DNA of 64,000 bases from Candidatus Gottesmanbacteria bacterium RIFCSPHIGHO2_02_FULL_39_11 (GTDB lineage Bacteria; Patescibacteriota; Microgenomatia; 2-02-FULL-39-11), in NCBI GenBank assembly GCA_001779195.1, contig MFJL01000026.1, positions 3,226-67,225 of the forward strand. Reading direction: 5' to 3'. Position 1 is the stretch's first letter. Every line of letters starts with the position of its first letter. Below, in pieces: positions 866 to 26,348 of the stretch. The notes beneath the pieces are model-generated. The model was not told where the DNA came from and made no database searches. It saw only the letters and a program-made list of their open reading frames with translations. Position numbers and translations under genes: made by a program.

Positions 866-900
866 CGCTCTTTCCGATCCCGATTTAATCGGGAGCGGAT
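866..900. repeat. nested GC-containing hairpin (ccgctc..tcccgat-ttaa-atcggga..gagcgg)
   Basis: Perfect inverted repeat tcccgat/atcggga nested in ccgctc/gagcgg, seen directly; it sits downstream of the hydrolase stop. Confidence 0.5.
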
Positions 901-903
901 TAG

Positions 904-936
904 CACTGTAAAATTTTTAAAAAAAATTTTACAGTG
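904..936. promoter_or_regulatory. 33-bp palindrome cactgtaaaa-N13(AT)-ttttacagtg, copy 1 of 2
   Basis: Perfect 10-bp inverted arms seen in sequence; a near-identical copy lies at 8290-8322 in the copper-operon promoter. It contains TGTA/TACA half sites. Confidence 0.5.
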
Positions 937-1124
937 TAAAAGAGGTTTCCCGCTAAACGATTCTTGAAAAAGAGCGCAGCATATGATAAATATGACGGAA
1001 GGACACCGTAGAAATAATCCAAAGTGTGTCGTAGTTAAACGGAGCACTAATAAGAATCTTAATCGATTGAAGCAAGGTGGTACCACGAGTTAACCTCGTC
1101 CTTGTCAAAGGAGGAGGTTTTTTT

Positions 1125-3288: not shown

Positions 3289-6246
3289 TTACTTTCCGGA
3301 GCTGACTCGGACATTTGACATCGGTTTTTCAGGTGTTGCCATGGTTGAGCTAATTTTGGCAAATCCGGCAAAGATTAAACTAAAAATAATAATCATGACA
3401 GTAGGAGCAATAAATGATAGGTAGTTTCTGCGGTGCGGCTGAAAATAGCGTAGAGTCAGAGAATTACTAACCACTGATACAGACGACAAGGCCATAGCAA
3501 GTCCGGCAAGTTCCGGTTTGAGCACCAGTCCGGCAAATGCCAGCGCTCGTGCTGCAACCGGAATTCCAATCACATTGTAAAACAGGGCAAAGAACATATT
3601 CTGTTTGATTTTACCCATCGTTTCTTTTGATAAGTTAATTGCTGTCGCGACATCTCTTAAATCATTTTTTACAATGACAATTCCCCCCGCTTCCATAGCC
3701 ACATCGGTTCCAGAACCCATAGCAATTCCTAAATCTGCTTGTGCTAGAGCCGGAGCATCATTAATACCGTCTCCGACCATGGCAACCGTCTTACTTTGTT
3801 CCTGAAGTTTCTTCACCTCGCTTGCCTTATCCTGAGGCAATACTTCTGCAAGAACATTGGTTATTCCTAATTGTTTGGCTATAGCTTCTGCCGTTTTCCG
3901 GTTATCGCCCGTTATCATATAGACAGCTATATTCTTTGCTGTTAGTTTTTGAATGGCTTCCCGGGATGTCTCTTTGAGAGTATCCGCAACGGCAACAGTA
4001 CCTATAATTTCTTTGTTGTTGGAAAGAAGCATTACCGTTTTTCCTTGTTCCTCAAGTCGTACTACTTTTCTGTCGACTCTATCAATTGGTAAGCCGACAA
4101 CATCAGTTGTCAGTTTTCTATTTCCAAAATAATACGTTTCACCGTTAATAACCCCTTGTACTCCGTGTCCGGCAATTGCCTTAAACTGCTCGACTCCGGA
4201 TGTTTTTATCGATTCTTCATTTGCATAAGTTACGATTGCCTCAGCCAAAGGATGCTCAGAAGAACGCTCAAGACTTGCTGCAAGAGAAAGAACATCGTTC
4301 TCATCAAAGTCAGAAAAGCAATCGACGTCAGTAACTACAGGCTTACCGTTTGTCAGTGTGCCCGTCTTATCAAAAATTACAACATTCACCTTACAAGCCT
4401 TTTCAAGCGGCTCACCGCCTTTTATTAATATGCCGTGTTCAGCACCTTTTCCGGTTCCTACCATAAGAGCGGTTGGAGTTGCCAGTCCCAACGCGCATGG
4501 ACAGGCGATGACTATCACTGCCGTAAATGCCATAAGTGCATAGGAAAGCGGTGCACCGATTACAAAAAACCATACAACAAAGGTAAGAAGTGCAATCGCA
4601 ATTACAGCCGGGACAAAGTATGCTGATATTTTATCGGCGAAAGCTTGAATAGGAGCTTTGCTTCCTTGAGCTTCTTCAATAAGTCTGATTATCTGAGACA
4701 ATGTTGTTTCCGATCCCACACGGGTTGCTTCAAATTCAAAACTGCCCATCTTATTCATAGTAGCGCCAATAACTGTATCACCAATATTTTTCTCAACCGG
4801 GATACTTTCACCGGTTACCATGGACTCGTCAATACTTGATGAACCCTTTATTATTTTCCCGTCAACTGGTATCTTTTCACCCGGTCTAACCAAAATAACA
4901 TCTCCTTTAACTACTTCATCAATCGGTATATCTAGCGTTTGATTGCCGCGCACCACTCGTGCAGTTTTTGCCTGAAGACCCATCAGCTTTTTTATGGCGT
5001 CTGATGTCTGTCCTTTAGCACGAAGTTCGAGCCATTTTCCTAAAAGAACAAAGGTAATAAGAAATGCCGCTGTTTCAAAATACAGTTCAGGAATTTTTTC
5101 TCCGTTTAGACCAATAAATGAACCGGTCCTAAGACTGTAGAATAGAAAATTATAGATACTGTATAGAAATGCAGTTGACGTTCCGATTGCTATAAGACTG
5201 TCCATATTAAACGTCTTCATACGAAGAGCAGATATCATTCCTTTATAGAAACTGTTTCCTAAGAAGATTTGGACCGGTGAGGCAAGAAGAAAAGAGATAG
5301 CTCCTACATACGGAAGTAAAATAGTCTTTCCCGGAATGAAAGGGAAGAAGTCAAAAAGCATAAAGTAGAGCATGGGAAAACTTAGCACAAAACCCATAAT
5401 GAATTTATTACGGGCTTTTTTTATTTCTTTCTGCCTTTTTTTTGACTCGAAAGTAGCATCTTTCTGATTGACAATTTCCGCTTTATATCCTGCTCTCTCC
5501 ACGGCCTTAATCAGTAAGTCAACAGACGTTTTTGCTAGGTTAAAATCAACGAGAGCTTTTTCTGCCGCGAAGTTGACATTTGCCTGCGATACGCCATCTA
5601 CTTTTTTTAAGGATCTCTCGATAATTGCCGCACAGGAGGAACAGTGCATCCCTGAAAGGGATAGATTGACTCTTGTAGTTTGAGATGCAATATTTTCCTG
5701 TTTTTGTATGCTTTTATTTTCTCTATCTTTCCCAATTTCAGGTGTATTTGCAGAAGATGTGATTCCGTCAAAAAGTCTGATTACATCAAGTGAAGAGACA
5801 AGATTCTCTAAATACTCCTTAGACGTTTTTTGATTTTCCGGAACAGATACCTTTACTTGGCGGTTGTTCTTGAGCACTCCTTCAAAATACGATTTACCTT
5901 CAGGATCTTGTCGTACTTTTCCTTCGGCTACGATTTCCGATTCCAATGAAAACTTAAGAGGTTTTCCTGTTGGAATAACTTCTTGCTCTATATTCATTCC
6001 ATTTCCCAATACAGCATTCCCATTTCCGTTACTTTCAACTTTCGCTTCATATCCGGCACGAGCAATGGCAGAAACAATATTCCGTAATGATCCGTCATTA
6101 TCATCTGCTACCAGACTGGCAGCACCTGTTTTATGATCGATGGATCTCACCTGTACCCCAGGAATTTCCGACAGTTCATCTTTAATAAGAGCTTCACATG
6201 AACTACAATGCATTCCCGAGATAGTAAAGTTTATGTTTGTTGTCAT
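3289..6246 (-). CDS. copA: copper-translocating P1B-type ATPase with multiple N-terminal HMA domains
   Basis: HMA motifs GMHCSSC (x2), TM CPC motif [11 protein letters not shown], phosphorylation site FDKTGTLT, hinge [10 protein letters not shown]; 985 aa. Confidence 0.9.
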
Positions 6247-6249
6247 ATC

Positions 6250-6465
6250 TTATGCTTCTAAAACGGTATAGGGCATACCCGACAGTGCAGTGATAATATC
6301 GGACACTTTCAACTCATTGCTGCTTGTTATCGTCGTTTCTCCGTTATTGTTTTTAATCGCCACATCTGTAACTCCTGTAAGCCTTCCCACTTTTTTCTTA
6401 ATCAATTTGACACAAGCTTCGCAGGTTATCCCTGAAATTTTTAAAGTTAAAGTGTAATTATTCAT
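6250..6465 (-). CDS. copZ: copper chaperone (HMA domain protein, CopZ-like)
   Basis: 71 aa with GITCEACV metal-binding motif; its start overlaps copA. Confidence 0.8.
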   Translation of the reverse strand: MNNYTLTLKISGITCEACVKLIKKKVGRLTGVTDVAIKNNNGETTITSSNELKVSDIITALSGMPYTVLEA

Positions 6466-8228
6466 AGAACTTTGATAACTCCCCGTGGTACACCCATTGC
6501 ACAGGTAATAGGATAATTTCCTTTTCCATTCGGGGTGAAATTGAAGGTAATTGTTTTACCTTTCGCCAAATATTGAGGATCATCTACCAGTCTTGGAATA
6601 GTTATGGTTCCCATGCACCCCGACCCGTTATCTTTAACATCTATTTCCATCCTTACCGGTGTTCCAGCTTTTACAGAAAACTCATTAGGAGAAATATCCC
6701 GGTCAGCAGTATATGTTGTTTTTATAACCTGTACGGCACCTTCCCGTTTTGCTTCTTGGGCAACAACGGGTTGTTGGACAGCTTGTTTTGCCCCTCCTCC
6801 ACAACCGCAACCGCCCGTCCCGCATGATACTCCGCTTTTTGCCGGCGGTGCCTGCGCAACTGCATCCGTACTTTTTTCAACTACATTAAAAACTCCCGTA
6901 TACATGCCCATACTGCATGAGAAAGGCAATCTTCCAACGTCTGTTGGGGTAAATTCTATGGTATTGTCACCTAATTCAAGATTTTTCCGTATGCCAAGGC
7001 GGGATATAATGATGGCACTGGCACACGTATTAGAATCAGTTGAGTTGATTTCCCATTTCACCGGAACATCTTTTACGACAGTAAATATATTCGGATTATA
7101 TCCGTTTGCCGACTGCGTCATCTTAACGACTTGAAAACCATCCACAATAGTATTGACAGAAGATGCAGCCAATACATTCTGATTAGAAGAAAAAAGATAT
7201 GCAGGAGATAATCCCATCAAATTTAATCCGTTTTGAGCATTGAAAAACGCTAGTATTGTAACGACAACACCGGCAAATTTGAAGAATTTTTGGGCAAAAT
7301 ATCCTTTGATGACGGATGTCACTCCTCCGACACCTAATAATCCGGGAGCAGTACCCAAAGCAAAAATACCCATGATGGTGGCCCCTCTGATAAAACTGCC
7401 GCTACTCATAGCCAAAAGCTGCATCGCTTGGGTAAAACCGCAGGGAAGAAAAAAAGTCAATCCGCCCAGGATGAATGCATTTTTATGACTGTATTCTTTA
7501 TTCTGCTGCTCTTTTATCCCCAACGCCTTACTTATTCCTGTTGGAAGAGTGAAATGGGCATTGCTGATCCTGGGAAACAGTCCGGTAAGTTGCAATCCGA
7601 GCATCAACATAACCAGAGCTACTCCCAAGGTAAGAAGACCTAAACCAAAGCCAGATAGCTGAAAAAATGATCCGATTAGGCCAATAACACCGCCCAGTAT
7701 TACGTAAGAGGTGATTCTTCCGAAATTAAAAAAAAGATGGGGTTTAAATTTTTCATACACTGATGCATTAGGATTTTTTTCTGAAAAACGGGCAGATACC
7801 CCAAGCACCAGACCTCCCACAAGCGCCATGCAGGTAGAGAGACCTGCGGTTATTCCTATCAGGAATATGGGTATCAGACCGGACGGACGGGAAATAGAAG
7901 TACTGAATAATTTGTTTAAACCAAATATATCGACAAGAATAAAAAGAAAGGAAAGCACAATAACTGAAATGATAATATCTTTGTAGTCATTAATGTTTTT
8001 AGAAAAAAGCGGTTTTTCCTCCTCGTAACCAACTTGATACCCTGCCCGCTCTACTGACTGTATAATTGTGCCATCATTTAAGTAGTTTTCGTGATAAAGT
8101 TCTGCACATTTTTTCCGCTGGGAAACGGTAACTTTTTTCACTCCGGGGATGTCTTTTAATTCATCCTCAATTAAAAGTTCGCAGGATCTGCAGTGCATTC
8201 CTTGAATTGGAACAGTAGTGATTCTCAT
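6462..8228 (-). CDS. fusion protein: N-terminal HMA domain, polytopic permease-like membrane domain, Cys/Gly-rich linker, two C-terminal cupredoxin-like domains
   Basis: N-terminal GMHCRSC HMA motif; ~8 predicted TM helices (TauE/SafE- or CcdA-like); GCGCGGG linker. Two tandem beta-rich repeats end in C..M motifs (SCSMGM, TCAMG) reminiscent of cupredoxin/CopC-like copper sites. Confidence 0.5.
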   Translation of the reverse strand: MRITTVPIQGMHCRSCELLIEDELKDIPGVKKVTVSQRKKCAELYHENYLNDGTIIQSVERAGYQVGYEEEKPLFSKNINDYKDIIISVIVLSFLFILVDIFGLNKLFSTSISRPSGLIPIFLIGITAGLSTCMALVGGLVLGVSARFSEKNPNASVYEKFKPHLFFNFGRITSYVILGGVIGLIGSFFQLSGFGLGLLTLGVALVMLMLGLQLTGLFPRISNAHFTLPTGISKALGIKEQQNKEYSHKNAFILGGLTFFLPCGFTQAMQLLAMSSGSFIRGATIMGIFALGTAPGLLGVGGVTSVIKGYFAQKFFKFAGVVVTILAFFNAQNGLNLMGLSPAYLFSSNQNVLAASSVNTIVDGFQVVKMTQSANGYNPNIFTVVKDVPVKWEINSTDSNTCASAIIISRLGIRKNLELGDNTIEFTPTDVGRLPFSCSMGMYTGVFNVVEKSTDAVAQAPPAKSGVSCGTGGCGCGGGAKQAVQQPVVAQEAKREGAVQVIKTTYTADRDISPNEFSVKAGTPVRMEIDVKDNGSGCMGTITIPRLVDDPQYLAKGKTITFNFTPNGKGNYPITCAMGVPRGVIKVL

Positions 8229-8289
8229 AAAATATCTATACCCATCTTACTCAGGTTTGCAACTAGAATAGTTGCAATAGCTCACTTAG

Positions 8290-8322
8290 CACTGTAAAAT
8301 TTTTTAAAAAAAATTTACAGTG
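8290..8322. promoter_or_regulatory. palindrome cactgtaaaa-AT-ttttacagtg, copy 2, ~65 nt upstream of the copper operon start
   Basis: Near-identical to 904-936. It is followed upstream by a second perfect palindrome tactgaaaaa-ggcg-tttttcagta (8336-8359) and a direct repeat ttttcagtatat (8351-8362, 8393-8404). Confidence 0.55.
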
Positions 8323-8639
8323 TAAAATGGGTTTATACTGAAAAAGGCGTTTTTCAGTATATATGCTGGAAAAACATATTTCAACCTCGAGTTTTTTCAG
8401 TATATTAGGTAATTTTAGTAATAACGACTATCTTACCAATACAGTTATTAAGATTTTATGAGTACCGGGCACAAAAAATTTATTCGTATTATTTCCTTTC
8501 CTTTTTCGTGATCTCCTTGGCGAAATAAATGATACCGAGAATAAGAAAAACAATAACTAATAACCATATCAGTGAACCAAATATTCCCCAGCCAGACATC
8601 ATATTTGAGTAATATCCCATCATAATAAGCCACCTCCTT

Positions 8640-10826
8640 TCAAATTGAAATTAAATCTTTTTCTGCTCGTTTTAATAATACTGCATTTGTCGCCACAATA
8701 ATTGATGAGATACTCATAAGAAGTGCTGATATTTCAGGCCGTAATGAAATACCAAACCCAGGATATAAAATACCTGCTGCAACCGGAATTGCCAGAAGGT
8801 TATAAATCGATGCCCAAAACAGATTTTGTTTCATTTTGCGCACGGTTGCTTTGGATAATTTGATTGCTCGTAGAATATCAGCAGGATCTGATTTCATTAG
8901 GACAACTTTCGCGGTCTCAATAGCAACATCAGTACCAGCGCCAATTGCAATTCCTATATCTGCTTGTGAGAGAGCCGGAGCATCATTGACTCCATCGCCA
9001 ACCATAGCAGTAAACTTACCTTCTTTTTGTAACTTCTTAATATATGAGGCTTTGTCTTCCGGCAACACCTCAGAGAATATTCTGTCTATAGTTAATTGCT
9101 TCCCAATTGCTTCCGCAGTTTTTTTATTATCGCCTGTTATCATGGCTACTTCCAACCCCAACTCTTTCATAGCTAGGATTGCTTCTTTGGCTGTTGGTTT
9201 AATCTTATCGGCTGCTGCCGCCACGCCTGCAACTTTGCCGTCAATTGCCAAAATCATTATGGTTTTGCCCTCAGATAATAATCGGTCAATATCTTTCTGG
9301 AGTGGAGTAATATCAACTTTCCGATCATTCATGAGCTTTATGGTTCCCACAAGAACGTGCCTGCCGGAAACATACGCTTCAACGCCATGACCAGCTAAGT
9401 TTTTGAATCCCGCAACTTCACCTAGAACAAGTTTTTCTTTCTCGGCTTTTTCCAAAATAGCGTGACTTAGAGGATGACTCGATCGCTTCTCAACAGAGGC
9501 AATAAACCATAGAACCTTTTTCTCATCGTGCGATACTGATAGTATATCAATCACGGTGGGTTTGCCTTCTGTCAATGTACCCGTCTTATCAAGAACCACT
9601 GCTTGGATTTTTGATACCTGCTCAAGCGTGGGGGCATCTTTGATGAGGATATTATGTTTGGCTCCAAGACCAGTGCCTACTGCTACGGCAGTTGGAGTTG
9701 CTAGTCCAAGTGCATCCGGACAAGCAATCACGACAGTTGAAATAGCAAAGGACAGCGCAACAAGAAGTGGTTGACCCAGAATAAAAAACCAAATACCGAA
9801 TGTCAAAAGCCCACCGCCTACGGCGATTATAACAAGATATTTGGCAAACTTATCTGCTAATTTTTGCCCGGGTGCTTTTGAGTTCTGGGCAGTTTCCACC
9901 ATTTTAACAATTTGGGCAAGAGCAGTATCTTCGCCAACTTTCGTGGCTTTGAATTTGACAGAGCCGGAAGTATTGATTGAACCACCAATAACCGAATCGC
10001 CTATATTTTTAGCCACCGGAATTGACTCACCAGTAACCAGAGATTCATCAATCGCCGTCTCTCCTTCGATAATCTCGCCATCGACTGGCACTTTGTCCCC
10101 TGGTTTAAGCATAAGAATATCGCGAGACTTAACTTGTGATGTAGGTACCATTTCTTCTTTTCCATCTTTCCAAAGCCTTGCTTGGGGAGGAACGAGGTTA
10201 AATAATGCTTGGAGTGCATCGGTAGTACCCCGCCGACTTTTCATCTCCATCCAATGGCCAAAAAGCACAAAGGTAATAAGCATTACAGAGGCTTCGTAAT
10301 ACGAATCATTACTGCCTAAAATAGTTAGGACAACACTAAATCCATAGGCCGCTGTGATCCCTACCGCAATCAAAACTGCCATATTGAGAGTCTTGGCTTG
10401 AAGTGCTTTATAAGTTGAATAAAGGAAGATCCATCCGGCGTAGAAAAATACGGGTGTGGTTAACAGAAACAGAAGCCACGGTACTGGAATTGGACTTGGT
10501 AAAGTTACTCCGATAATTTTCTCCCCAAGGGGGGAATACAGGATAATGGGGATGGAAAAAAGCAGAGCGAAAAAGAATTTATTTCGGATATCTTCTTCCA
10601 TCAACTTTGCCATTTCACGACCTGCCAATCCTCCGTGCTCCATCCCCATACTCATCGTCATACTCATCTTTAATTTTTCCCATGATGACATCCCAGAAGT
10701 AGGCTTCATGACATGTCCAGCTTCTAATTTCTCACTTCTGGCTTCCAGTTCCATCCCGCATTTAGGACATGAACCAGGAATATCTGAAGAAATTTCAGGA
10801 TGCATCGGACACGTATATTTTTGCAT
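8640..10826 (-). CDS. heavy-metal (Cu) P1B-type ATPase with N-terminal CPMHPE...CPKCGM metal-binding domain and Met-rich segment; non-canonical CPD TM motif
   Basis: YTCPMHPEISSDIPGSCPKCGM (HMBD-type), MSMTMSMGMEHGG Met-rich stretch, TM motif IACPDALGLATP (CPD rather than CPC/CPH), LDKTGTLT, GDGVNDAPAL. Confidence 0.85.
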   Translation of the reverse strand: MQKYTCPMHPEISSDIPGSCPKCGMELEARSEKLEAGHVMKPTSGMSSWEKLKMSMTMSMGMEHGGLAGREMAKLMEEDIRNKFFFALLFSIPIILYSPLGEKIIGVTLPSPIPVPWLLFLLTTPVFFYAGWIFLYSTYKALQAKTLNMAVLIAVGITAAYGFSVVLTILGSNDSYYEASVMLITFVLFGHWMEMKSRRGTTDALQALFNLVPPQARLWKDGKEEMVPTSQVKSRDILMLKPGDKVPVDGEIIEGETAIDESLVTGESIPVAKNIGDSVIGGSINTSGSVKFKATKVGEDTALAQIVKMVETAQNSKAPGQKLADKFAKYLVIIAVGGGLLTFGIWFFILGQPLLVALSFAISTVVIACPDALGLATPTAVAVGTGLGAKHNILIKDAPTLEQVSKIQAVVLDKTGTLTEGKPTVIDILSVSHDEKKVLWFIASVEKRSSHPLSHAILEKAEKEKLVLGEVAGFKNLAGHGVEAYVSGRHVLVGTIKLMNDRKVDITPLQKDIDRLLSEGKTIMILAIDGKVAGVAAAADKIKPTAKEAILAMKELGLEVAMITGDNKKTAEAIGKQLTIDRIFSEVLPEDKASYIKKLQKEGKFTAMVGDGVNDAPALSQADIGIAIGAGTDVAIETAKVVLMKSDPADILRAIKLSKATVRKMKQNLFWASIYNLLAIPVAAGILYPGFGISLRPEISALLMSISSIIVATNAVLLKRAEKDLISI

Positions 10827-10872: not shown

Positions 10873-11487
10873 CTATGTGAAACTATGTTTATATGATTCT
10901 GCAATAACTTGAACAGACGATTGGATGATAAGAAATGATATACCCAGTCCGACAAAAATATCCGGCCAGGCGGAATTAAAATAGGAAACTAATAATCCTG
11001 CACCAATAACTGCCACATTTGCCGTCACATCGTTTCTGGAACATATCCATGCTGACTTAACATTAATATCTTCTTTCCGATGCTTCATCAACAAAAGAAA
11101 ACTCACCAGGTTAGCAATCAACGCAACCACTCCTAAAAGGGTAATTGTTTCTGCTTGAGGTAGTGTCGGCACAATAATTCTAAGGATACTTTTATAGACA
11201 ACAAAAAATCCCAACAATAGCATAATTAACCCTTTGATAAGGGACGCCTTTGCCCGTAGGTTTGATGATTTATTCATTACGAGCAAACTTACTCCATAAA
11301 CCGAGGCATCTCCCAACATATCCAGCGAGTCACCCAGAAGCGCGTTTGAGGATGCGAGAATTCCGCCAATAAATTCGGCTATGAACATCACGAAATTAAT
11401 AGCCAAAACAATGATAAAAATTTGCTTCAGCTCTTTCTTTTTGGCTAGATCGAGTTCTTTGTTATCAAACTCACAACAGTCAGACAT
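10873..11487 (-). CDS. cation diffusion facilitator (CDF)-like transporter, transmembrane domain only
   Basis: The N-terminus matches CDF TM1-2 signature (FIAEFIGGILASSNALLGDSLDMLGDA). It is only 204 aa and lacks the ~90-aa cytoplasmic C-terminal domain of CzcD-type CDFs. Confidence 0.5.
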   Translation of the reverse strand: MSDCCEFDNKELDLAKKKELKQIFIIVLAINFVMFIAEFIGGILASSNALLGDSLDMLGDASVYGVSLLVMNKSSNLRAKASLIKGLIMLLLGFFVVYKSILRIIVPTLPQAETITLLGVVALIANLVSFLLLMKHRKEDINVKSAWICSRNDVTANVAVIGAGLLVSYFNSAWPDIFVGLGISFLIIQSSVQVIAESYKHSFT

Positions 11488-11606: not shown

Positions 11607-12287
11607 TTACAATTTTTTACTGGTTATACGTTTATTAAATACTTCTGCTGAAATCATTTTTACTGATGGGAAAAAGCCGGGTGTTTCTTTTTGATAGCGA
11701 ATGTATGCATCGCCAAACATTTTAATCATCTCCCTCTCTTCAACTCGCGCAAGCCGGATATATCGGAAAATAAGGATCGGGGCCATGAACAAGGTAATAA
11801 GAGTTGGCCATTGAATGAGAAAGCCAAAAATAATCAAAATAAATGCAAGATATTGCGGATGACGAATATAGTTATAGACACCCCCAATCGCGAGCCGTTG
11901 TTGTTTTTGGGCTTTATATAATACTTCCCATGCTTTACCCAGAAGGACAAGTCCGCCGATAATTAAAGCGTAGCTTGTAATATGCAGAATATTAAAATGT
12001 GGATCCCCGCCAAGACCTAACAAAGTATTAAGGATGTGGCCGTTATTATGAGTAAAATCCAAACCTATTTTGTTGCCAAAAAATGAAGTCAACAAGTAGA
12101 TAGTCAGAGGAAATCCGTACATCTCGGCAAACAGGGCAACGATGAATGCCCCAAGAATCTTGTACGTCCTCCAGTCTGTATTTGTCCTCGGCTTGAAAGC
12201 GCTCTTAATGAAATAGAGAAAAAGAATGATATTGAATATTACGAGAAACCAGTTTCCGTAGTCGTACATATAAGGAAAGTGTAACAA
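11607..12287 (-). CDS. isoprenylcysteine carboxyl methyltransferase / phospholipid methyltransferase family membrane protein
   Basis: Polytopic membrane protein with C-terminal NYIRHPQYLAFILIIFGF motif (RHPxY...E of ICMT/PEMT family). Confidence 0.55.
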   Translation of the reverse strand: MLHFPYMYDYGNWFLVIFNIILFLYFIKSAFKPRTNTDWRTYKILGAFIVALFAEMYGFPLTIYLLTSFFGNKIGLDFTHNNGHILNTLLGLGGDPHFNILHITSYALIIGGLVLLGKAWEVLYKAQKQQRLAIGGVYNYIRHPQYLAFILIIFGFLIQWPTLITLFMAPILIFRYIRLARVEEREMIKMFGDAYIRYQKETPGFFPSVKMISAEVFNKRITSKKL

Positions 12288-12377: not shown

Positions 12378-12758
12378 ATGTTTCAAAAAACACTAAGCCC
12401 TCTGGAACAAGAGATTATGACTATTGTTTGGGAACTGAAGAAGTGCTCTGTTCGGGATGTTATGGAGCAACTTAACCGGGAGAAAAAACTTGCGTATACA
12501 ACGGTTGCCACACTGCTTCAGCGCTTGTTTGAAAAGGGTCTTGTCCAGAGAGGCAGTCGAGGTACAGTACTTTCCTACATACCTAAAGTTTCCAAGGAAC
12601 TATACAGCAAAAGAACGGCTAAGTCGTTTATGCGAACGTTTGTGTCTTCTTTTGGGGAAACAGCTATCGCTTCGTTTGCCGAGTCTATTGACAAACTGCC
12701 AAAGGACAAAAAGGATTATTTGTTGCAGCTGTTGGAAAAACAAAATGAGGATAAATAA
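12378..12758 (+). CDS. BlaI/MecI/CopY-family winged-helix transcriptional repressor
   Basis: The N-terminus (LSPLEQEIMTIVWELKKCSVRDVMEQL...KLAYTTVATLLQRLFEKGLVQR) matches the penicillinase-repressor family. It has no C-terminal Cys cluster, so it is BlaI-like rather than classical CopY. Confidence 0.8.
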   Translation: MFQKTLSPLEQEIMTIVWELKKCSVRDVMEQLNREKKLAYTTVATLLQRLFEKGLVQRGSRGTVLSYIPKVSKELYSKRTAKSFMRTFVSSFGETAIASFAESIDKLPKDKKDYLLQLLEKQNEDK

Positions 12759-13731
12759 GCATTTGTTCATTTTTTCAAGTTTATTATTTCTTCTGACTGC
12801 GAGTTATTTTTTTGTTTTAGTGAAGTTTTTTCCACTACTGGTACACCATACCTTTTATTACTGTCAAGAAATGGCAAAGGTAATATCTTTGAGCCTTCCG
12901 GGGAACTGGGGAGTTGTTGTCTTTGGGATATTAATTATTTCGGTTCTTTACACCGCATTCAAATTATTTGCTACCATCGTTCAAGTTTATAAGTTTCGTC
13001 AGTTGTTGTCCCGATCCATTGTCAAGAATCATGAACTTTCAGATATTTTCAAATCTCTCAAGCTTGTAGATAAAGTGGTCGTATTACATGAAACTAAGCC
13101 ATTTGCATATTGTTTTGGAGTAAGAAACCCAAAAATCTTTATTACTATTGGTTTAATTGCAATGGTTAATAGAAAGGAACTTGAGGTTATTTTACGCCAC
13201 GAAAAGTATCATCTGGAACATCGGGATAACCTAATTTTACTGGTAGCAACATTTATTGAGTCTCTATTCCCTTTTTTCCCAATACTTACGGACCTTATCC
13301 GTATTTACAAGACAGATCGGGAATTACTAGCAGATCAGGCTGCTATCCATAGAGAAGCAGATAAACATTCCCTTTCGTCTATTTTGAAAAAACTCCTTCA
13401 ATATGAACCCGTAACACTACCTGCATTGGCTCCCGCAATTGCTGATGTTGATACACTTGAGACTCGTATAAAATCATTGCTTTCAATTAAAGTAGATTAT
13501 CCTAAGCTAGGAAAAAGAAATTCGCTTCTCAGTATAATTTCCATTGCCGCACTCATGGCGCTTATGAGAACTTCTGTACATGCAGTAGAACTTCATAGGG
13601 ACGGCTTGGATATAATGATAGTCTGTAATGGAAATGTCAGCTGCGAATCTGTCTGTAAAGACCGCAACTTGATCAAATCGCAAAGTATCAGCTCTTCGTA
13701 CACTTCTAAAAACTTCTCCGCAAACAACTGA
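12745..13731 (+). CDS. M56-family (BlaR1-like) membrane metalloprotease / antirepressor without a penicillin-binding sensor domain; His/Cys-rich extracytoplasmic tail
   Basis: HEXXH motif (RHEKYHLEHRD) between TM helices. An in-frame ATG at 12745 overlaps the repressor stop by 14 nt. After the last TM the C-terminus reads HAVELHRDGLDIMIVCNGNVSCESVC. Confidence 0.7.
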   Translation: MRINKHLFIFSSLLFLLTASYFFVLVKFFPLLVHHTFYYCQEMAKVISLSLPGNWGVVVFGILIISVLYTAFKLFATIVQVYKFRQLLSRSIVKNHELSDIFKSLKLVDKVVVLHETKPFAYCFGVRNPKIFITIGLIAMVNRKELEVILRHEKYHLEHRDNLILLVATFIESLFPFFPILTDLIRIYKTDRELLADQAAIHREADKHSLSSILKKLLQYEPVTLPALAPAIADVDTLETRIKSLLSIKVDYPKLGKRNSLLSIISIAALMALMRTSVHAVELHRDGLDIMIVCNGNVSCESVCKDRNLIKSQSISSSYTSKNFSANN

Positions 13732-21099: not shown

Positions 21100-22066
21100 A
21101 ATAGGAAGGGGGATTTTTAAATGTTTCTTCCAAACTGTTTTTTACAGATATAAAATCCATCTTTTCTCTTTCATGAATAAGAGCTTTTATACCTTGTATA
21201 GCACCATCGTATTTTGAAAATAACTGTCTGACCGTCTGTTGTACTTCAGCATCCATACTTCCAATCTCTAACTGTAGTTGAGATTGTCTGCCTTGGCTAA
21301 AATGAACCTGGGAATTAAGCCATGCCAGTAGTCTTTGTTGATAGAATTCTTCTTTTCCCGATCTCTTTCTCCGTTCTCATTGACTGATCTAAAATACTGA
21401 GCAATATCCAGATTATCCTCTATATATAACGAGTCTGCTTCCCACCGGGCAGTTCCTGATCCTTCCATTCCCCCTCCTCCTAAATCTGCCAAGGCAACCG
21501 CCTGAGCAACTAAGTTTCCTTTGTATTTCACAAACTCCGGTTGCGTCACAGTTCCTAGGGATACGTCAAAATTGGGAACAGTCAATAGAATTGCTTCCTG
21601 TACTTTCTGTCTATCTGATTCCGTAAATACTTCCTCCCCCGTTTCTTTATTAACCCCTGTCATATATTCTATCGCCAACTTGGCGCTGGACTGTTCATTA
21701 TTTCCCAAAGCACGTTTTCTTTTTACCATTGCCCGCCCTTTAGCATCTTCTTACCGGATTCGGCTTCCAATTCTGGACCGTATCATGCCATGCCGCGGCA
21801 AATTTGGCCAGACCAATATCTCTCTCTGTGACTTTATGTGAATTGGGGTTTGCCTGTCTTACTGCATTCAGGATACTTTCGCTCCGATGCATCACCCCTT
21901 GTGTATGAATTCTTATATGGTATGACAATCGGTTTTCGAGATTGGGATTTCTTTCAAAGTTTTCTTCAATTCTGGATAAGGCAGATGAAATCCCCCGTGC
22001 GATTGAGGCGTTGAATTTTTGTTCGTGTGATAAATTCCCTTCTGAAGGTTGAATCGTTTCAGTCAT
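21100..22066 (-). pseudogene. probable frameshifted gene (three consecutive same-strand ORF fragments; HD-like H...HD motif in the N-terminal fragment)
   Basis: ORFs 21740-22066 and 21268-21729 are separated by 10 nt. Protein-like coding in a third frame continues below 21268 to ~21100. The pattern H..H...AAWHD suggests an HD phosphohydrolase. Confidence 0.25.
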
Positions 22067-22149
22067 TATGGGTGAATTATTTCATAAGAAGGAACAAGAA
22101 ATCAAATGGAGCTCTTCCTGATAAAAATATGGTTTTGCTTTTCATAGAA

Positions 22150-22398
22150 TCATTTATACACTCCGTGTCTGTGTGCAATCGTCACAACATATACCCTCTT
22201 TTCTTTTTCATGGACATAATAAAGTATCCGGTAGGGCCAGGCCCGCAGAGACCTCGTTTCCGACAAAGTCCCCGAAAGTTTTTTGCCTTCTGCAGAATTT
22301 TTTTCCAGGAGTAAAAGTCTTTTTCTTATCTTTATTTGTTCCGTTTTCGGAAGACGAAGATATTGCTTAGCGGCTTTCGGAGTAATAATGACTTCCAT
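22150..22398 (-). CDS. RelE/ParE-family type II toxin
   Basis: 82 aa, with C-terminal RAWPYRILYYVHEKEKRVYVVTIAHRHG typical of the RelE/ParE fold; 4 nt downstream of the antitoxin. Confidence 0.7.
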   Translation of the reverse strand: MEVIITPKAAKQYLRLPKTEQIKIRKRLLLLEKNSAEGKKLSGTLSETRSLRAWPYRILYYVHEKEKRVYVVTIAHRHGVYK

Positions 22399-22401
22399 TT
22401 T

Positions 22402-22656
22402 TTATTTTAAGTCAGAGAGACGGATGCCCTGACCCTTTTTTGCCTGTTTCATGCCTTCCGAAATGCTTTTTTTGGCTCCGGGAATGGCAAAGATTTCCGC
22501 TGTCTCTTCAAGAGATTCTAATTCCTCCGCACTTACAAGTGTTGCCTTCGGCTGTCCGTTCACGGTGATCGTCACCCGATCCATATGCTGACTGACCTTA
22601 TTGACCAGATCCGGAAGGATCATTCGCGCGTCCGATATAGAAATTATGTTGCTCAT
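22402..22656 (-). CDS. Phd/YefM-family antitoxin
   Basis: MSNIISISDARMILPDLVNKV...LVSAEELESLEETAEI matches YefM/Phd. The start is taken at the internal Met; the ORF track extends to 22707. Confidence 0.7.
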   Translation of the reverse strand: MSNIISISDARMILPDLVNKVSQHMDRVTITVNGQPKATLVSAEELESLEETAEIFAIPGAKKSISEGMKQAKKGQGIRLSDLK

Positions 22657-22762
22657 ACCTAAAATGTACAACATTATGTACAAGATGTCAAGAGGAGATA
22701 TAACCACTATTTGCGCAAGTTAAAAACAAAATGCAGAATTTCATATGCAAGATCTTTCCTTT

Positions 22763-23182
22763 TCACTCTGAAACTGTAAATTTATTTTTCTTATAACTCT
22801 TGATTAAATATTCTGCGGCTGGAAATAAGTTTTGTGGGATTTTATCTTTATCAAACCATTCCCATTTCTCCCAGTCCTCCGGAATTAAGAGTTTCGGTCC
22901 ACCATCAATTTCTGCTGTTACTCCTATGCCGATATAGTGATTGCCGAAGGCGTAATTTGCGTTTACGGAAATGATTTTATACTTTTTAATACCGCATCCG
23001 AACTCTTCTTTGATATTCCGTCTCACCGTATCCCCGATTTTTTCTGCGAATCTGATATCTCTTCCAGGTACACCGTAAACCTGTTGTCCGTTATACATCC
23101 ACTTCTTAGTCAGTAGACCCAAGAGAATTTTATTATCTTTAATAACCAAAATAGCTACACTAACTTTTGGATATTTTTTCAT
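22763..23182 (-). CDS. NUDIX hydrolase
   Basis: Nudix box GVPGRDIRFAEKIGDTVRRNIKEEFG (Gx5Ex7REUxEExGU). Confidence 0.7.
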   Translation of the reverse strand: MKKYPKVSVAILVIKDNKILLGLLTKKWMYNGQQVYGVPGRDIRFAEKIGDTVRRNIKEEFGCGIKKYKIISVNANYAFGNHYIGIGVTAEIDGGPKLLIPEDWEKWEWFDKDKIPQNLFPAAEYLIKSYKKNKFTVSE

Positions 23183-23260
23183 ATTAGGCTGGGTTTACAT
23201 ATTCTGTTAGAACTTATTTTATTAATTTTTAAGTATATATTTCAACAAAATATACTGTCA

Positions 23261-23875
23261 CTAGTTCAAATATTTTTCAATTTTATCAATAATCTTCTTT
23301 GCATTATCAAACACATTATTAACATCTTTTTTTTGATAAAAATCATCCGTCTCTTTTAAGGCAGCTAGATGTATTCTGTTTCTTATCTTTCTTATTTTCT
23401 CTGCACAATCATATTCTTCTTTATCAAAAACTTTTGCTCTAAAGGCAGCTTTATTTAGTGTAATAAATTGAGTACTATCTTCAAAAGATTCACATTGTTT
23501 ACGTTTTATGACGCCACAAACTTTTTCAACTCCTGATATTTTATAGAGATCTTTGCATGTGATTTCTTTCCATTCAATATCCATAATATCTTTTTCTTCG
23601 ATCTTATTTAGAAATATAGCAGTTTTTAAACAGTAATATATGCAACTTTCTACTATTGCGGCAGTATGAACAATAATATCCTTAAATATAGAGTATGAAA
23701 TGGGACCTGGTAATTTTACTTTATCTTCCTCTAGGATAATCAAAAAGAGAATGTACCTAAAAGAAATAGTAATGTTTGTTCCTAAAAGATCATCTTTGAT
23801 AAATTTAAATCTAGCCTCAATGGTCTTTTGGGAAGGAATTTGCGGATTTAAAGAAGATAAAATCTTACTACCCAT
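23261..23875 (-). CDS. hypothetical protein with HEPN-like R-x6-H motif (RKIRNRIH)
   Basis: 204 aa, largely alpha-helical, with a C-terminal RKIRNRIHLAA motif compatible with the HEPN Rx4-6H signature. This is inference only. Confidence 0.3.
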   Translation of the reverse strand: MGSKILSSLNPQIPSQKTIEARFKFIKDDLLGTNITISFRYILFLIILEEDKVKLPGPISYSIFKDIIVHTAAIVESCIYYCLKTAIFLNKIEEKDIMDIEWKEITCKDLYKISGVEKVCGVIKRKQCESFEDSTQFITLNKAAFRAKVFDKEEYDCAEKIRKIRNRIHLAALKETDDFYQKKDVNNVFDNAKKIIDKIEKYLN

Positions 23876-24029
23876 TTTTGAGTAATTTACTTAATGAATC
23901 ATACCCTTTTTCTTTAAGATATTTGCCTAATTTCTTATCTGATCTCACACCAAAATCTTTACCATATTTTTTTTCAATAGTACCCATTTTCGTATCAGTT
24001 CTTTTACTTCTAAAGCTGGGATTCTTCAT
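23868..24029 (-). CDS. unannotated 53-aa basic protein translationally coupled (ATGGGTAG overlap) to the 23261-23875 gene
   Basis: Hand-translated: MKNPSFRSKRTDTKMGTIEKKYGKDFGVRSDKKLGKYLKEKGYDSLSKLLKNG; its stop overlaps the downstream start by 8 nt. Confidence 0.3.
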   Translation of the reverse strand: MKNPSFRSKRTDTKMGTIEKKYGKDFGVRSDKKLGKYLKEKGYDSLSKLLKNG

Positions 24030-24204
24030 ACATTTATTATATACTACTTTTCATTTTTTTTGTTTTAGTCATCGCTTGATCAATTAATATATCAACAAAA
24101 AAGGATAAAAACATAAATCCTAAAATCCTCCACCCTCCAGGTGGGGATGACTATTAGGGTCTATTTCTCACCCAACTAACAAGAAATATTGTACCGTATA
24201 GTTG

Positions 24205-24582
24205 CTAAGTCATACGATAAATATATGCATCTTCGATGAAGTAGTTATTAATCGTATTTTTAGAAAATCTGATACCAGAAATAGCAGTTCTTCCGGTACT
24301 TATAGCTTTTTTTAGCATAACTACTAAATTGTTATTGGGACTTACTACAGATATGTCCTTAAGGGAAATAATATTATTTCCAAGATAACTCTGGATGTCC
24401 TGGTAAACCTTTAAAGGTCCTTCTTCGTCAACTCTGGAGGAAGATATGACATATTTCCAACTATCAGAATTTTGATCATAGAACCACATAGCTGCATTAA
24501 CAGGAAATTTTTTTGAATCTAAGTTTTTCAATAACGTTTTACCCTCCGTTATGTATTTATCTACCAATATTTTTGTATCCAT
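24205..24582 (-). CDS. hypothetical protein, downstream partner of HEPN-domain gene
   Basis: 125 aa; overlaps the HEPN gene by 22 nt; no nucleotidyltransferase GSxDxD motif. Confidence 0.3.
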   Translation of the reverse strand: MDTKILVDKYITEGKTLLKNLDSKKFPVNAAMWFYDQNSDSWKYVISSSRVDEEGPLKVYQDIQSYLGNNIISLKDISVVSPNNNLVVMLKKAISTGRTAISGIRFSKNTINNYFIEDAYIYRMT

Positions 24583-24977
24583 TGCAATACTCCTTTCCTT
24601 GAATCAGTGATTGATAGGATCATGTCTTCTGCTTTTTTTCGTTGGTGCTGTTCATAACGAGCATTTTCTGACCAATCCTTAGCAACACCCCAATAGGTAT
24701 CGAATGTCTTATCTGCTTTTATCTGGTTATTAAGTTTTATTTCTAGCCCTGCTCCTTTTATCAGTTTTTCCAACTCATGTGTGTAGATGTTGTCAAGTGA
24801 TTTTCTGTCTAAAGGGAAATCGCCTTTCCTCGTTTTTCTAGCTATGCATGCTTTAAGTGCACACTCGATTACATATCCACTAATATAATACGCTCCCGAA
24901 TAATGACCCTTTTTTAGAAGAATTTGTGCTTCTTTTAATCGTATCGTTGATAGTTTTTTAAAGAGTAATCTATTCAT
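24561..24977 (-). CDS. HEPN-domain protein
   Basis: GYVIECALKACIA helix and overall 4-helix pattern of the classical HEPN domain; 138 aa. Confidence 0.5.
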   Translation of the reverse strand: MNRLLFKKLSTIRLKEAQILLKKGHYSGAYYISGYVIECALKACIARKTRKGDFPLDRKSLDNIYTHELEKLIKGAGLEIKLNNQIKADKTFDTYWGVAKDWSENARYEQHQRKKAEDMILSITDSRKGVLQWIQKYW

Positions 24978-25162
24978 AGAATTAAAAAAATAGATTCAAA
25001 TACATTTTAACATATCCGTGAAAGAGTGAGACTTTCCGAAGTGTTCACGTTGTTGATGTGATGGTCAAACTTAGGTATACCCAATCAAATCCTCTACCCT
25101 CCAGGTGGAAATGATAATCTTTTCTTCCATATTATTTTCACCCTTGCTCTGAGTGAGCTGTA

Positions 25163-26212: not shown

Positions 26213-26233
26213 ATTTTTATCTTAGTATATTCA

Positions 26234-26316: not shown

Positions 26317-26348
26317 TCCACACCTGCTTTTTATTTTTTTCAGAATCT

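What the first reader, a model, noticed from the sequence alone, without database searches (positions are those of the whole stretch)
8640..10826. P1B-ATPase with CPD instead of CPC/CPH TM metal-binding motif, plus CPxHPE/CPxCG N-terminal domain and Met-rich stretch
The second ATPase carries IACPDALGLATP, whereas the neighbouring CopA has the canonical [11 protein letters not shown]. The TM4 Cys-Pro-X triad defines P1B subclass and metal selectivity, and Asp is unusual at that position.

Combined with an HMBD-type N-terminus and an MxM-rich segment (typical Cu(I)/Ag(I) ligands), this may be a rare subclass with distinct substrate or direction. It forms an operon with a CDF-like transporter that lacks its cytoplasmic domain.
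Basis: partly seen in the sequence, partly recalled or inferred. Interest (0 to 1): 0.55.

Follow-up and report, generated by a model that had tools for sequence, protein, structure and literature searches.

The report
CopB-like copper pump with Cys-Pro-Asp
This gene encodes a metal-exporting ATPase, probably a copper pump, in which one metal-binding residue in the membrane is aspartate instead of cysteine or histidine; the change is real, and it marks a widespread but experimentally untested sister lineage of the known CopB copper pumps.

Summary
ORF 8640-10826 (-) encodes a 728-aa P1B ATPase with IACPDALGLATP (TGT CCG GAT). It has an N-terminal HMBD motif (Pfam PF19335) and a Met-rich linker. 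CPD is not an error: all 120 closest homologues carry it. A DNA pattern scan of species-representative genomes hit its 120-locus limit across 11 phyla.

In a tree of 291 sequences, CPD and CPH (CopB, P1B-3) pumps form an exclusive clade (100% bootstrap). CPD is a sister lineage within it (89%). CPD shares TM2 GHWxEM and three TM3 residues with CopB. It shares the LpCopA-E189-equivalent glutamate and TM6 MSxSS with CopA. All other copper-pathway residues are kept.

Contexts are copper-type: CsoR, CopZ, CopA, multicopper oxidase, cupredoxin. The likeliest function is copper export, playing the CopB role beside the neighbouring CopA. The metal and its oxidation state are untested.

"Rare" is wrong. 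One 2017 paper already noted CPD in three rhizobial ATPases. The CDF neighbour belongs to a genuine short family and recurs next to CPD pumps in two related contigs, but the pairing is not general. Verdict: a new variant of a known kind, of moderate interest.

The parts
8640..10826 (-). CPD-type P1B ATPase, 728 aa
   Evidence: Translation. Pfam E1-E2_ATPase, Hydrolase and HMBD. NCBIfam TIGR01511 copper-translocating ATPase, 588.7 bits against a cut-off of 397. The best solved relative is Legionella CopA 3rfu, E 2e-162.
10740..10820 (-). N-terminal HMBD (residues 3-29, YTCPMHPE...CPKCGM)
   Evidence: PF19335, E 4.5e-13. The same motif aligns to residues 40-67 of LpCopA 3rfu. Y4 and C6 are at least 90% conserved and H9, C20 and C23 are invariant in 58 homologues.
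10596..10709 (-). Met/His-rich linker (residues 40-77, ...KMSMTMSMGMEHGGLAGREMAKLME)
   Evidence: The full HMBD-to-first-helix linker (residues 27-78, 52 residues) holds 9 Met; this part is its Met-rich stretch. Linker Met fraction has a median of 17.5% in 82 homologues. M54, M56, M58, M60, M62, H64, M72 and M76 are invariant in the 58-sequence alignment A3.
10242..10259 (-). TM2 motif G190-H-W-M-E-M195, around the Glu equivalent to the LpCopA E205 entry residue
   Evidence: H191, W192 and M195 are shared by the CPD (95/95, 94/95, 95/95) and CPH (69/69, 66/69, 65/69) pumps. CopA-type pumps have K/R, Y/L and A at these positions. GHWxEM is found in 103 of 104 genome CPD ORFs.
9714..9722 (-). 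TM4 Cys369-Pro370-Asp371 (TGT CCG GAT)
   Evidence: D371 aligns with C384 of LpCopA and with the His of CPH pumps. It is conserved in 120/120 close homologues.
9576..9590 (-). Phosphorylation motif D413-K-T-G-T
   Evidence: It is invariant in all three classes, so the pump is expected to be catalytically competent.
8784..8804 (-). TM5 Y675-N676-(x)4-P681
   Evidence: Copper-type TM5 signature, conserved in the CPD, CPH and CPC classes.
8703..8717 (-). TM6 M704-S-I-S-S708
   Evidence: MSxSS, as in CopA, in 84 of 99 genome CPD ORFs; CopB pumps have MSxST.
10873..11487 (-). Short CDF transporter, 204 aa, membrane domain only
   Evidence: Pfam Cation_efflux and TIGR01297. The family is conserved at about 200-221 aa, with an invariant N-terminal Cys-Cys, D56xxxD60 and C149xxxD153. 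It lies next to a CPD ATPase in L259 and L260 as well.
11607..12287 (-). ICMT/PEMT-family membrane methyltransferase; the likely true start is the ATG at 12269
   Evidence: Pfam PEMT and ICMT. The orthologue in the syntenic locus L131 starts MYDYGNW. The same family is found near CPD ATPases in 10 of 120 genome loci and on Ralstonia and Pseudomonas plasmids.
8489..8623 (-). 44-aa ORF for a Gly/Met/Trp-rich single-helix peptide, with a strong AAAGGAGG ribosome-binding site just after the ATPase stop
   Evidence: Read. Peptides of similar composition sit next to CPD ATPases in L128 (4491-4709) and L133 (the N-terminus of a SHOCT protein). Expression is not shown.
12378..13731 (+). Divergent BlaI-like repressor (12378-12758) and BlaR1/M56-like membrane protease. 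The protease ORF is listed from 12457; its true start probably lies near the end of the repressor gene (about 12755).
   Evidence: Pfam Penicillinase_R and Peptidase_M56. The same pair is found in the syntenic islands L131 and L259. The repressor lacks the C-terminal Cys motif of CopY.
6462..8228 (-). HMA - DsbD_2 - 2x cupredoxin membrane protein, directly downstream
   Evidence: The same gene follows the CPD ATPase, or the CDF, in L131 and L259.
3289..6246 (-). Canonical CopA (CPC, two HMA domains), 985 aa

Best explanation
The gene encodes a functional P1B-type ATPase of a CopB-related lineage. It most likely exports copper from the cytoplasm, and it sits beside the canonical CopA of the same island, much as CopB accompanies CopA in the Enterococcus copYZAB operon (own knowledge).

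Inferred mechanism: copper is collected by the N-terminal HMBD and the Met/His-rich tail. It is passed to an entry region that carries extra His/Met ligands (TM2 GHWMEM, next to M149, E194 and D325). It is then bound in the membrane by C369, D371 and M704, with Y675, N676 and S707/S708 nearby. Release to the outside follows the usual phosphorylation cycle (D413) and passes E178.

Asp371 occupies the position of the third CPC residue, which is a direct Cu(I) ligand in CopA. Like a thiolate it is anionic, but it is a harder donor and cannot be oxidised. It probably changes affinity or oxidation-state preference rather than the identity of the metal.

Shown: the sequence features, their conservation, the phylogenetic position and the copper-type gene neighbourhoods. 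Inferred: the metal, the ligand role of D371 and the division of labour with CopA.
For: All catalytic motifs are intact. NCBIfam places the protein in the copper-translocating subfamily, above the curated cut-off. It is most similar to solved Cu(I) pumps (LpCopA and AfCopA, E about 1e-162), and LpCopA carries the same HMBD motif.

Residues equivalent to LpCopA M148, E189, E205, D337, C382, Y688, N689, M717 and S720/721 are all conserved in the CPD class. CPD and CPH pumps form an exclusive clade in 100 of 100 bootstraps and share TM2/TM3 signatures.

CPR contexts are copper-type. One is CsoR (with a canonical C-H-C fingerprint) - CopZ - CPD ATPase - CopA. Another is CsoR - DUF5676 - CPD ATPase - YHS. 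The syntenic islands carry a multicopper oxidase, a DsbA-like protein, an HMA-cupredoxin protein, CopZ and CopA.

Across 120 genome loci, HMA proteins (17-20), multicopper oxidases (10) and CsoR (9) recur nearby. On a Ralstonia plasmid the pump lies beside CopC, CopRS, a multicopper oxidase and CopB-OM. In AfCopA the third CPC residue carries the anomalous Cu signal (PMC9433437). CopB pumps are now regarded as Cu(I) exporters (PMC7558416).
Against: No member of the CPD lineage has been tested; four literature searches found only one sequence-based mention. A carboxylate is an unusual Cu(I) ligand and would suit Cu(II) or another divalent ion better.

Two of the three adjacent CsoR-like regulators have a C-H-H fingerprint rather than C-H-C. 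In this lineage the pump is sometimes paired with a CDF, a family typical of divalent metals. In Proteobacteria the commonest partners (MFS transporter, ICMT-like protein, DUF2933, PPK2, nucleoside and sugar-phosphate enzymes) are not classical copper genes. The structural model was too uncertain in the membrane region to examine the site.
Confidence: 0.68

Rival explanations
1. The Asp changes the selectivity to a divalent metal other than copper (Zn, Cd, Pb, Co or Ni). The pump and the adjacent CDF would then form a two-transporter divalent-metal efflux unit inside a multi-metal island.
For: Asp is a hard, anionic ligand, and ZntA-type Zn pumps use an Asp in the membrane site (own knowledge). 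The CDF is adjacent in the window, L259 and L260, in both gene orders. Some neighbouring CsoR-like regulators have a C-H-H fingerprint. Relatives of the CDF sit in MerR- and ArsR-controlled operons.
Against: TM5 YN(x)4P and TM6 MxxSS are the copper-type signatures, and nothing resembling the Zn-type TM5 Lys or TM6 Asp-x-Gly is present. NCBIfam scores are far below the cut-offs for ZntA models (317.8 against 1240; 359.9 against 1005). The lineage is nested with the copper pumps. The CDF pairing is absent from most contexts. The Cys and Met ligands are kept.
Confidence: 0.13
2. It is a copper pump whose main job is to supply copper to extracytoplasmic copper proteins rather than to detoxify, a CopA2/FixI-like role. 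The candidate recipients are the HMA-DsbD_2-cupredoxin protein encoded directly downstream and the multicopper oxidase.
For: The HMA-DsbD_2-cupredoxin gene follows the pump, or the pump-CDF pair, in the window, L131 and L259, and similar proteins occur in 5 of 120 loci. A second, canonical CopA in the same island could cover detoxification. Bacteria do split these two roles between paralogous Cu pumps (PMC7558416).
Against: In L128 the CPD pump is the only ATPase in the 12-kb stretch read, in an operon headed by a CsoR-type repressor; CsoR de-repression by excess copper is own knowledge. Most of the 120 loci lack a cupredoxin partner. An independent promoter-like and operator-like region separates the pump from the cupredoxin gene.
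Confidence: 0.15
3. CPD is a sequencing or assembly error, or the gene is decaying.
For: None found.
Against: CPD is present in 120 of 120 homologues from many independent assemblies and in 120 of 120 genome loci found by the pattern scan. The reading frame is intact and all catalytic motifs are present.
Confidence: 0.01

Closest known systems
CopB / P1B-3 copper ATPases (CPH in TM4; e.g. Enterococcus hirae, Archaeoglobus fulgidus and Sphaerobacter thermophilus CopB)
   Same: Exclusive common clade (100% bootstrap). Shared TM2 G-H-W-x-E-M and TM3 Leu/Ala/Gly signature. A metal-rich N-terminal tail replaces CxxC HMA domains. The pump accompanies a CPC CopA in copper operons.
   Different: Asp replaces His in TM4. 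TM6 is MSxSS, not MSxST. The pump keeps the CopA-type Glu at the LpCopA E189 position, where CopB has Trp followed by Glu. About a dozen further positions follow CopA rather than CopB. In this CPR branch the N-terminus is HMBD plus a Met-rich stretch rather than poly-His.
CopA / P1B-1 Cu(I) ATPases (CPC; Legionella pneumophila CopA 3rfu, A. fulgidus CopA 7r0g)
   Same: Best solved relatives (E about 1e-162). LpCopA has the same YTCPMHPE...CPxCGM N-terminal motif. TM5 YN(x)4P and TM6 MxxSS are the same, as are the equivalents of the M148/E205/D337 entry residues and the E189 exit residue.
   Different: The third residue of the TM4 triad is Asp, not Cys. TM2 and TM3 residues differ (H191, W192, M195, L331, A335, G339). 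There is no CxxC HMA domain. The protein falls outside the CPC clade.
Rhizobial group VIc Cu-ATPases with a 'novel CPD motif' (Xanthobacter autotrophicus, Nitrobacter hamburgensis, Bradyrhizobium sp.; PMC5552934)
   Same: Same CPD / YN(x)4P / MSxSS signature. The plasmid-borne genes of these organisms were recovered here as members of the same lineage.
   Different: Those proteins are about 815-830 aa. They have an HMA-like domain without CxxC and a CG[YH]HC motif. The window protein is 728 aa with an HMBD. That paper gives sequence analysis only, with no function.
ZntA / P1B-2 Zn(II)/Cd(II)/Pb(II) ATPases
   Same: General P1B architecture. A carboxylate takes part in the membrane metal site (own knowledge).
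   Different: In ZntA the Asp lies in TM6 and the TM4 motif is CPC. The window protein has copper-type TM5 and TM6, and its scores against ZntA models are far below the cut-offs.

Membership tests
P1B-type (heavy-metal) P-type ATPase | DKTGT phosphorylation site, TGES, GDGxNDxP, and the Cys-Pro-x motif in TM4 | tested here: met
   LDKTGT at residue 413, VTGES, GDGVNDAP and CPD are all present. TIGR01525 scores 594.3 bits against a cut-off of 346.
P1B-type (heavy-metal) P-type ATPase | Eight membrane helices (MA, MB, M1-M6) | tested here: inconclusive
   The secondary structure of the AlphaFold model shows helices at the expected places, but confidence in the membrane region is low (pLDDT below 50 in TM4 and TM5-6). 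The full-length alignment to 3rfu supports the topology.
P1B-1 (CopA, Cu(I)) | CPC in TM4 | tested here: not met
   The motif is CPD.
P1B-1 (CopA, Cu(I)) | TM5 YN(x)4P and TM6 MxxSS | tested here: met
   Y675-N676...P681 and M704-S-I-S-S708.
P1B-1 (CopA, Cu(I)) | Membership of NCBIfam TIGR01511 (copper-translocating P-type ATPase) | tested here: met
   588.7 bits against a cut-off of 397.
P1B-1 (CopA, Cu(I)) | Groups with CPC pumps in phylogeny | tested here: not met
   No CPC sequence falls inside the CPD+CPH clade; the split appears in 100 of 100 bootstraps.
P1B-3 (CopB) | CPH in TM4 | tested here: not met
   Asp replaces His. GAT is one substitution away from CAT.
P1B-3 (CopB) | TM6 MSxST | tested here: not met
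   The motif is MSISS. Of 99 genome CPD ORFs, 84 have MSxSS and 9 have MSxST.
P1B-3 (CopB) | His-rich N-terminal tail instead of CxxC HMA domains | tested here: inconclusive
   No HMA domain is present. The tail is Met-rich with only 2 His, after an HMBD. CPD relatives outside CPR have His/Met-rich tails.
P1B-3 (CopB) | Common ancestry with CPH pumps (clade and shared TM2/TM3 residues) | tested here: met
   The CPD+CPH clade has 100% bootstrap support. H191, W192, M195, L331, A335 and G339 are shared.
P1B-2 (ZntA, Zn/Cd/Pb) | CPC plus a TM5 Lys and a TM6 Asp-x-Gly; membership of the ZntA models | tested here: not met
   TM5 and TM6 are copper-type. NF033775 scores 317.8 bits against a cut-off of 1240.
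Copper-exporting function | Copper-stimulated ATPase activity or transport; a copper-resistance phenotype | not testable with these tools
   Only genomic context bears on this.
Cation diffusion facilitator (the neighbouring gene) | Six-helix Cation_efflux membrane domain | tested here: met
   PF01545, E 1.2e-23. TIGR01297 scores 96.5 bits against a cut-off of 82.35.
Cation diffusion facilitator (the neighbouring gene) | Cytoplasmic C-terminal domain, and a His/Asp site A (TM2 xDxxxD with TM5 HxxxD) | tested here: not met
   The protein ends after TM6, and the whole family is about 200-221 aa. The TM5 position is an invariant Cys (C149xxxD153), and the N-terminus carries an invariant Cys-Cys.

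The most novel reading that the evidence does not exclude
CPD pumps are a third major lineage of copper-type P1B ATPases, found in at least 120 species-level genomes from 11 phyla and on many plasmids. In this reading the oxygen-donor Asp gives them a different selectivity from both CopA and CopB. They might take Cu(II), handle copper together with a divalent metal, or pump with low affinity and high turnover. They would act with recurrent but unexplained partners: an ICMT-like methyltransferase, DUF2933, an MFS transporter, or a short CDF with a Cys-containing site. As a natural His-to-Asp swap in the CopB background, they would offer a direct test of the long-running Cu(I) versus Cu(II) question about what the third TM4 residue controls.
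Probability: 0.25. Interest if true: 0.65.

Novelty: new variant of a known kind. Interest (0 to 1): 0.4.

Why it matters
The Cys-Pro-x triad in TM4 is the main handle used to predict which metal a P1B pump moves. The standard scheme (P1B-1 to P1B-7) has no place for CPD. This work shows that CPD is a conserved, widespread and often plasmid-borne lineage, sister to CopB and carrying a mixture of CopA and CopB features. It is currently annotated simply as a copper-translocating or heavy-metal ATPase. If its selectivity or kinetics differ, annotation of metal-resistance islands would need revising. Cultivable hosts such as Ralstonia, Xanthobacter, Nocardia and Mycolicibacterium would provide a natural experiment on the role of the third TM4 ligand. 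If it is simply another Cu(I) exporter, the result is a useful footnote to the classification.

Tried and rejected
1. Sequencing error was rejected: CPD is present in 120/120 homologues and in 120/120 pattern-scan loci.

2. Structure: an AlphaFold2 model built on a 58-sequence alignment was poor (mean pLDDT 64.5, pTM 0.47, TM4 and TM5-6 below 50). Only its secondary structure was used, and no fold search was run. The alignment was shallow (77-87% identity) because only hits may be submitted.

3. Key classification papers (Smith et al. 2014, PMC4119550; Purohit et al. 2018, PMC5834730) are not held in the library. Statements about them rest on reviews that cite them and on my own knowledge.

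4. Searches for 'CPD motif', 'Cys-Pro-Asp' and CPD with CopB found only PMC5552934. Another hit for 'CPD' meant critical point drying.

5. A conserved CDF-ATPase operon was rejected as a general rule. The window's CDF found no relative in the 120 genome loci, and Pfam found only 2 CDFs among 150 downstream ORFs. The pairing does recur in L259 and L260.

6. I looked for a residue that co-varies with the Asp and could act as a built-in counter-charge, like the Lys of ZntA. The only CPD-specific columns were M76, P112 and N315, and none is charged.

7. The neighbour analysis used crude ORF calling (longest-first, 8-kb pieces, pump not centred). The counts are therefore lower bounds and may include spurious ORFs in GC-rich genomes.
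Full report
**Observation.** ORF 8640-10826 on the minus strand encodes a 728-aa protein. It contains [17 protein letters not shown], and the codons at 9722-9714 are TGT CCG GAT. Pfam finds E1-E2_ATPase, the HAD hydrolase domain and, at residues 3-29, the HMBD domain PF19335 (E 4.5e-13). The linker between that domain and the first membrane helix holds 9 Met in 52 residues, against 3.7% Met overall. The neighbouring 985-aa ATPase (3289-6246, -) has [12 protein letters not shown] and two HMA domains. The two pumps are 45% identical.

**Not an error, and not rare.** The window comes from a Candidatus Gottesmanbacteria genome (Patescibacteria); the deposited protein is 100% identical. All 120 best homologues (76-100% identity, mostly Microgenomates-type names) carry CPD. 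In a search of 1.84 billion cluster representatives, the closest representatives (48-63% identity) were CPD proteins. Beyond them, nearly every representative whose motif could be read had CPC, and a few had CPH.

All 120 translate to CPDAL[GA]LATP inside a long ORF. By record title they comprise 46 Actinomycetota, 39 Pseudomonadota, 14 Chloroflexota, 8 Patescibacteria and 4 Gemmatimonadota, plus a few from six further groups including one archaeon. A proteobacterial member also finds close relatives on plasmids of Ralstonia, Variovorax, Nitrobacter hamburgensis X14, Xanthobacter autotrophicus Py2, Bradyrhizobium BTAi1, Roseovarius and Pseudomonas fluorescens.

**Where it belongs.** I aligned the conserved core of 291 pumps: 95 CPD, 69 CPH and 127 CPC. 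Most of the CPH sequences came from a matching pattern scan of metagenomes; the rest were cluster representatives. The CPD/H/C column itself was left out of the distances. In neighbour-joining trees:
- CPD plus CPH form an exclusive clade in 100 of 100 bootstraps.
- CPH is monophyletic in 100 of 100.
- CPD is monophyletic in 89 of 100, except for one intermediate sequence, P0123 (CPDALALATP with MSAST in TM6).

Position-by-position comparison explains the tree:
- CPD and CPH pumps share TM2 G-H-W-x-E-M, where CopA-type pumps have K/R, Y/L and A. They also share TM3 Leu331, Ala335 and Gly339, where CopA has Phe, Val and Ala.
- CPD pumps share with CopA the Glu equivalent to LpCopA E189, where CopB has Trp followed by Glu. 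They also share TM6 MSxSS, where CopB has MSxST, and about ten further positions.
- All three classes keep the equivalents of LpCopA M148, E205, D337, C382, Y688, N689, M717 and S720.

The protein is therefore a member of a distinct sister lineage of CopB (P1B-3) with a mixed CopA/CopB signature. NCBIfam places it in the copper-translocating subfamily TIGR01511 (588.7 bits against a cut-off of 397) and far below the ZntA models. Its best solved relatives are the Cu(I) pumps LpCopA and AfCopA (E about 1e-162). LpCopA carries the same N-terminal YTCPMHPE...CPLCGM motif.

**Surroundings.** In the window the order on the minus strand is:
- ICMT/PEMT-like membrane methyltransferase (11607-12287)
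- short CDF (10873-11487)
- CPD pump
- a 44-aa ORF with a strong ribosome-binding site (8489-8623)
- HMA-DsbD_2-2x cupredoxin protein (6462-8228)
- CopA (3289-6246)
- a DUF1573 protein

A BlaI-like repressor, a BlaR1/M56-like protease, a DsbA-like protein, a multicopper oxidase and a YtkA-like protein are transcribed divergently.

A Woesebacteria contig has the same island, but a bPH_2 protein sits where the CDF is. A third syntenic island (L259, and the fragment L260) has DUF2933 - CPD pump - short CDF - HMA-cupredoxin - CopZ - CopA. Here the CDF lies 10 bp downstream of a 687-aa CPD pump that has a His/Met-rich tail and no HMBD. Other CPR contexts are:
- CsoR - small peptide - DUF5676 - CPD pump - YHS
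- CsoR - CopZ - SHOCT - CPD pump - DoxX - CopA
- CsoR - CopA - Mrr_cat-domain protein - CPD pump

One of these CsoR proteins has the canonical Cys-His-Cys fingerprint. The other two have Cys-His-His, a variant also known from Thermus CsoR (own knowledge).

Within the 120 genome loci the recurrent neighbours are HMA-only proteins (17-20 loci), DUF2933 (11), MFS transporters (11), ICMT-like proteins (10), multicopper oxidases (10), CsoR (9), PPK2 (6) and DUF5676 (5). The window's type of CDF was found in none. On the Ralstonia plasmid pRp12D0 the pump lies between an HMA / DUF2933 / ICMT group and an MFS transporter, next to CopC, CopRS, a multicopper oxidase and the outer-membrane CopB.

**Mechanism.** What is shown: an intact catalytic apparatus, copper-type TM5 and TM6, conserved entry and exit residues, a CopB-type TM2 with extra His/Met, a metal-rich N-terminus and copper-type neighbourhoods. 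What is inferred: the pump exports copper, and D371 takes the place of the third CPC residue. In AfCopA that residue is a direct Cu(I) ligand of the M158/C380/C382 site (PMC9433437).

An Asp is anionic like a thiolate, which fits the absence of any co-varying charged residue. It is also a harder donor and cannot be oxidised. I therefore expect altered affinity, release rate or oxidation-state preference rather than a new metal. CopB pumps, once thought to move Cu(II), are now classed as Cu(I) exporters (PMC7558416), so Cu(I) is the default expectation. I put copper export at about 0.7. The rivals are a non-copper divalent metal (0.13) and a dedicated metallation role for the adjacent cupredoxin and oxidase proteins (0.15).

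**Comparison with what is known.** One paper on Rhizobiales Cu-ATPases lists three atypical pumps (Xanthobacter, Nitrobacter, Bradyrhizobium) with a 'novel CPD motif', YN(x)4P and MSGSS, grouped with P1B-3 (PMC5552934). The same plasmid genes turned up here. No experimental work on any CPD pump was found. The standard classification tables do not list CPD.

**The CDF.** It is not a truncated gene. Relatives are consistently about 200-221 aa and occur in Patescibacteria, Sideroxydans and Pseudomonas-like genomes. They have an invariant N-terminal Cys-Cys, TM2 D56xxxD60 and TM5 C149xxxD153, so a Cys sits where CDFs normally have His. Relatives lie in MerR- or ArsR-headed clusters, once with PCuAC-like, DsbB, DsbA and ICMT-like genes. 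This suggests a thiophilic substrate, but nothing more can be said.

**Verdict.** The feature is a member of a widespread, conserved, CopB-related lineage that the literature has barely noticed and never tested. I rate it a new variant of a known kind, with moderate interest (0.4). The most novel reading still open is a distinct selectivity conferred by the Asp (probability about 0.25).

Noticed in passing
window 11607-12287 (-); L125 1404-2069; L127 6206-6853; L131 3713-4408; L136 6449-6910: An ICMT/PEMT-family membrane methyltransferase recurs near CPD-type pumps from Patescibacteria to Proteobacteria. It was found in 10 of 120 genome loci, often together with DUF2933, and it also sits in a MerR - short-CDF cluster. 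Its role in metal islands is unexplained. CzcN and NccN of Cupriavidus belong to the same family (own knowledge).
   Followed up: partly
window 10873-11487 (-); P0271-P0390: The short CDF family (about 200-221 aa, no cytoplasmic domain) has an invariant N-terminal Cys-Cys and an invariant Cys in place of the TM5 His of metal site A (C149xxxD153). This suggests a thiophilic substrate, which would be unusual for CDFs.
   Followed up: partly
window 8489-8623 (-); L128 4491-4709; L133 4630-4866: A 44-aa ORF (MMGYYSNMMSGWGIFG..., one hydrophobic helix, basic tail) with an AAAGGAGG ribosome-binding site starts 16 bp after the pump's stop codon. Gly/Met/Trp-rich single-helix peptides or SHOCT proteins of similar composition flank CPD pumps in other CPR contigs.
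   Followed up: partly
window 900-948 and 8286-8334: A 49-nt AT-rich palindromic element (TTAGCACTGTAAAATTTTT...AAAATTTTACAGTGTAAAA) occurs twice at 92% identity. One copy lies between the pump operon and the cupredoxin gene, and the other between ORFs 8-841 and 1077-1937. It could be an operator or a bidirectional terminator.
   Followed up: partly
window 8334-8404: There are three exact copies of TATACTGAAAAA (about 1.2 matches expected in the whole window allowing one mismatch; no shuffle reached the 8 found). Two of them form a perfect palindrome that overlaps a promoter-like site upstream of the HMA-DsbD_2-cupredoxin gene, so this is a probable operator.
   Followed up: partly
window 12378-13731 (+); L131 2251-3604; L259 2312-3611: The copper island is paired with a BlaI-like repressor and a BlaR1/M56-like membrane protease rather than CopY; the repressor has no C-terminal Cys motif. 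The pair is conserved in two syntenic islands, which hints at protease-mediated signalling for metal stress.
   Followed up: no
window 10806-10826 (-); P0001: The deposited protein for this gene is 721 aa and evidently starts at Met8, which cuts off the YTCP part of the HMBD motif. Y4 and C6 are at least 90% conserved in homologues, so the ATG at 10826 is the likelier start.
   Followed up: yes
L013, L020, L025, L042, L059 (N-termini of CPD pumps): Outside CPR, CPD pumps carry an HMA-like domain that has lost CxxC. It is followed by a conserved CG[YH]HC...H-x-C motif (49 of 97 ORFs) and a MGHGxGM...DMRNRF stretch. This is a different metal-binding N-terminus from the window's HMBD.
   Followed up: partly
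L125, L126, L127 (plasmids); A2 neighbour set: In Proteobacteria the CPD pump is often followed by an MFS transporter. It is surrounded by thymidine-phosphorylase-like, PRPP-synthetase, MBL-fold, phosphoketolase, histidine-phosphatase and PPK2 genes, a recurrent cluster with no obvious link to metals.
   Followed up: no
window 6462-8228 (-): This is a 588-aa fusion protein: HMA domain, DsbD_2 membrane domain and two cupredoxin-like domains, joined by a Cys/Gly-rich linker (GVSCGTGGCGCGGG). It is conserved next to the pump in related islands.
   Followed up: no
window 22001-30000: G+C drops to about 34% here, against about 40% elsewhere in the window, with strongly negative GC and AT skew.
   Followed up: no
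L128 4219-4485; L001 2379-2708; L133 4055-4327: The CsoR-family regulators next to CPD pumps come in two fingerprints: Cys-His-Cys in L133 and Cys-His-His in L128 and L001. The metal sensed by the second type is uncertain.
   Followed up: partly
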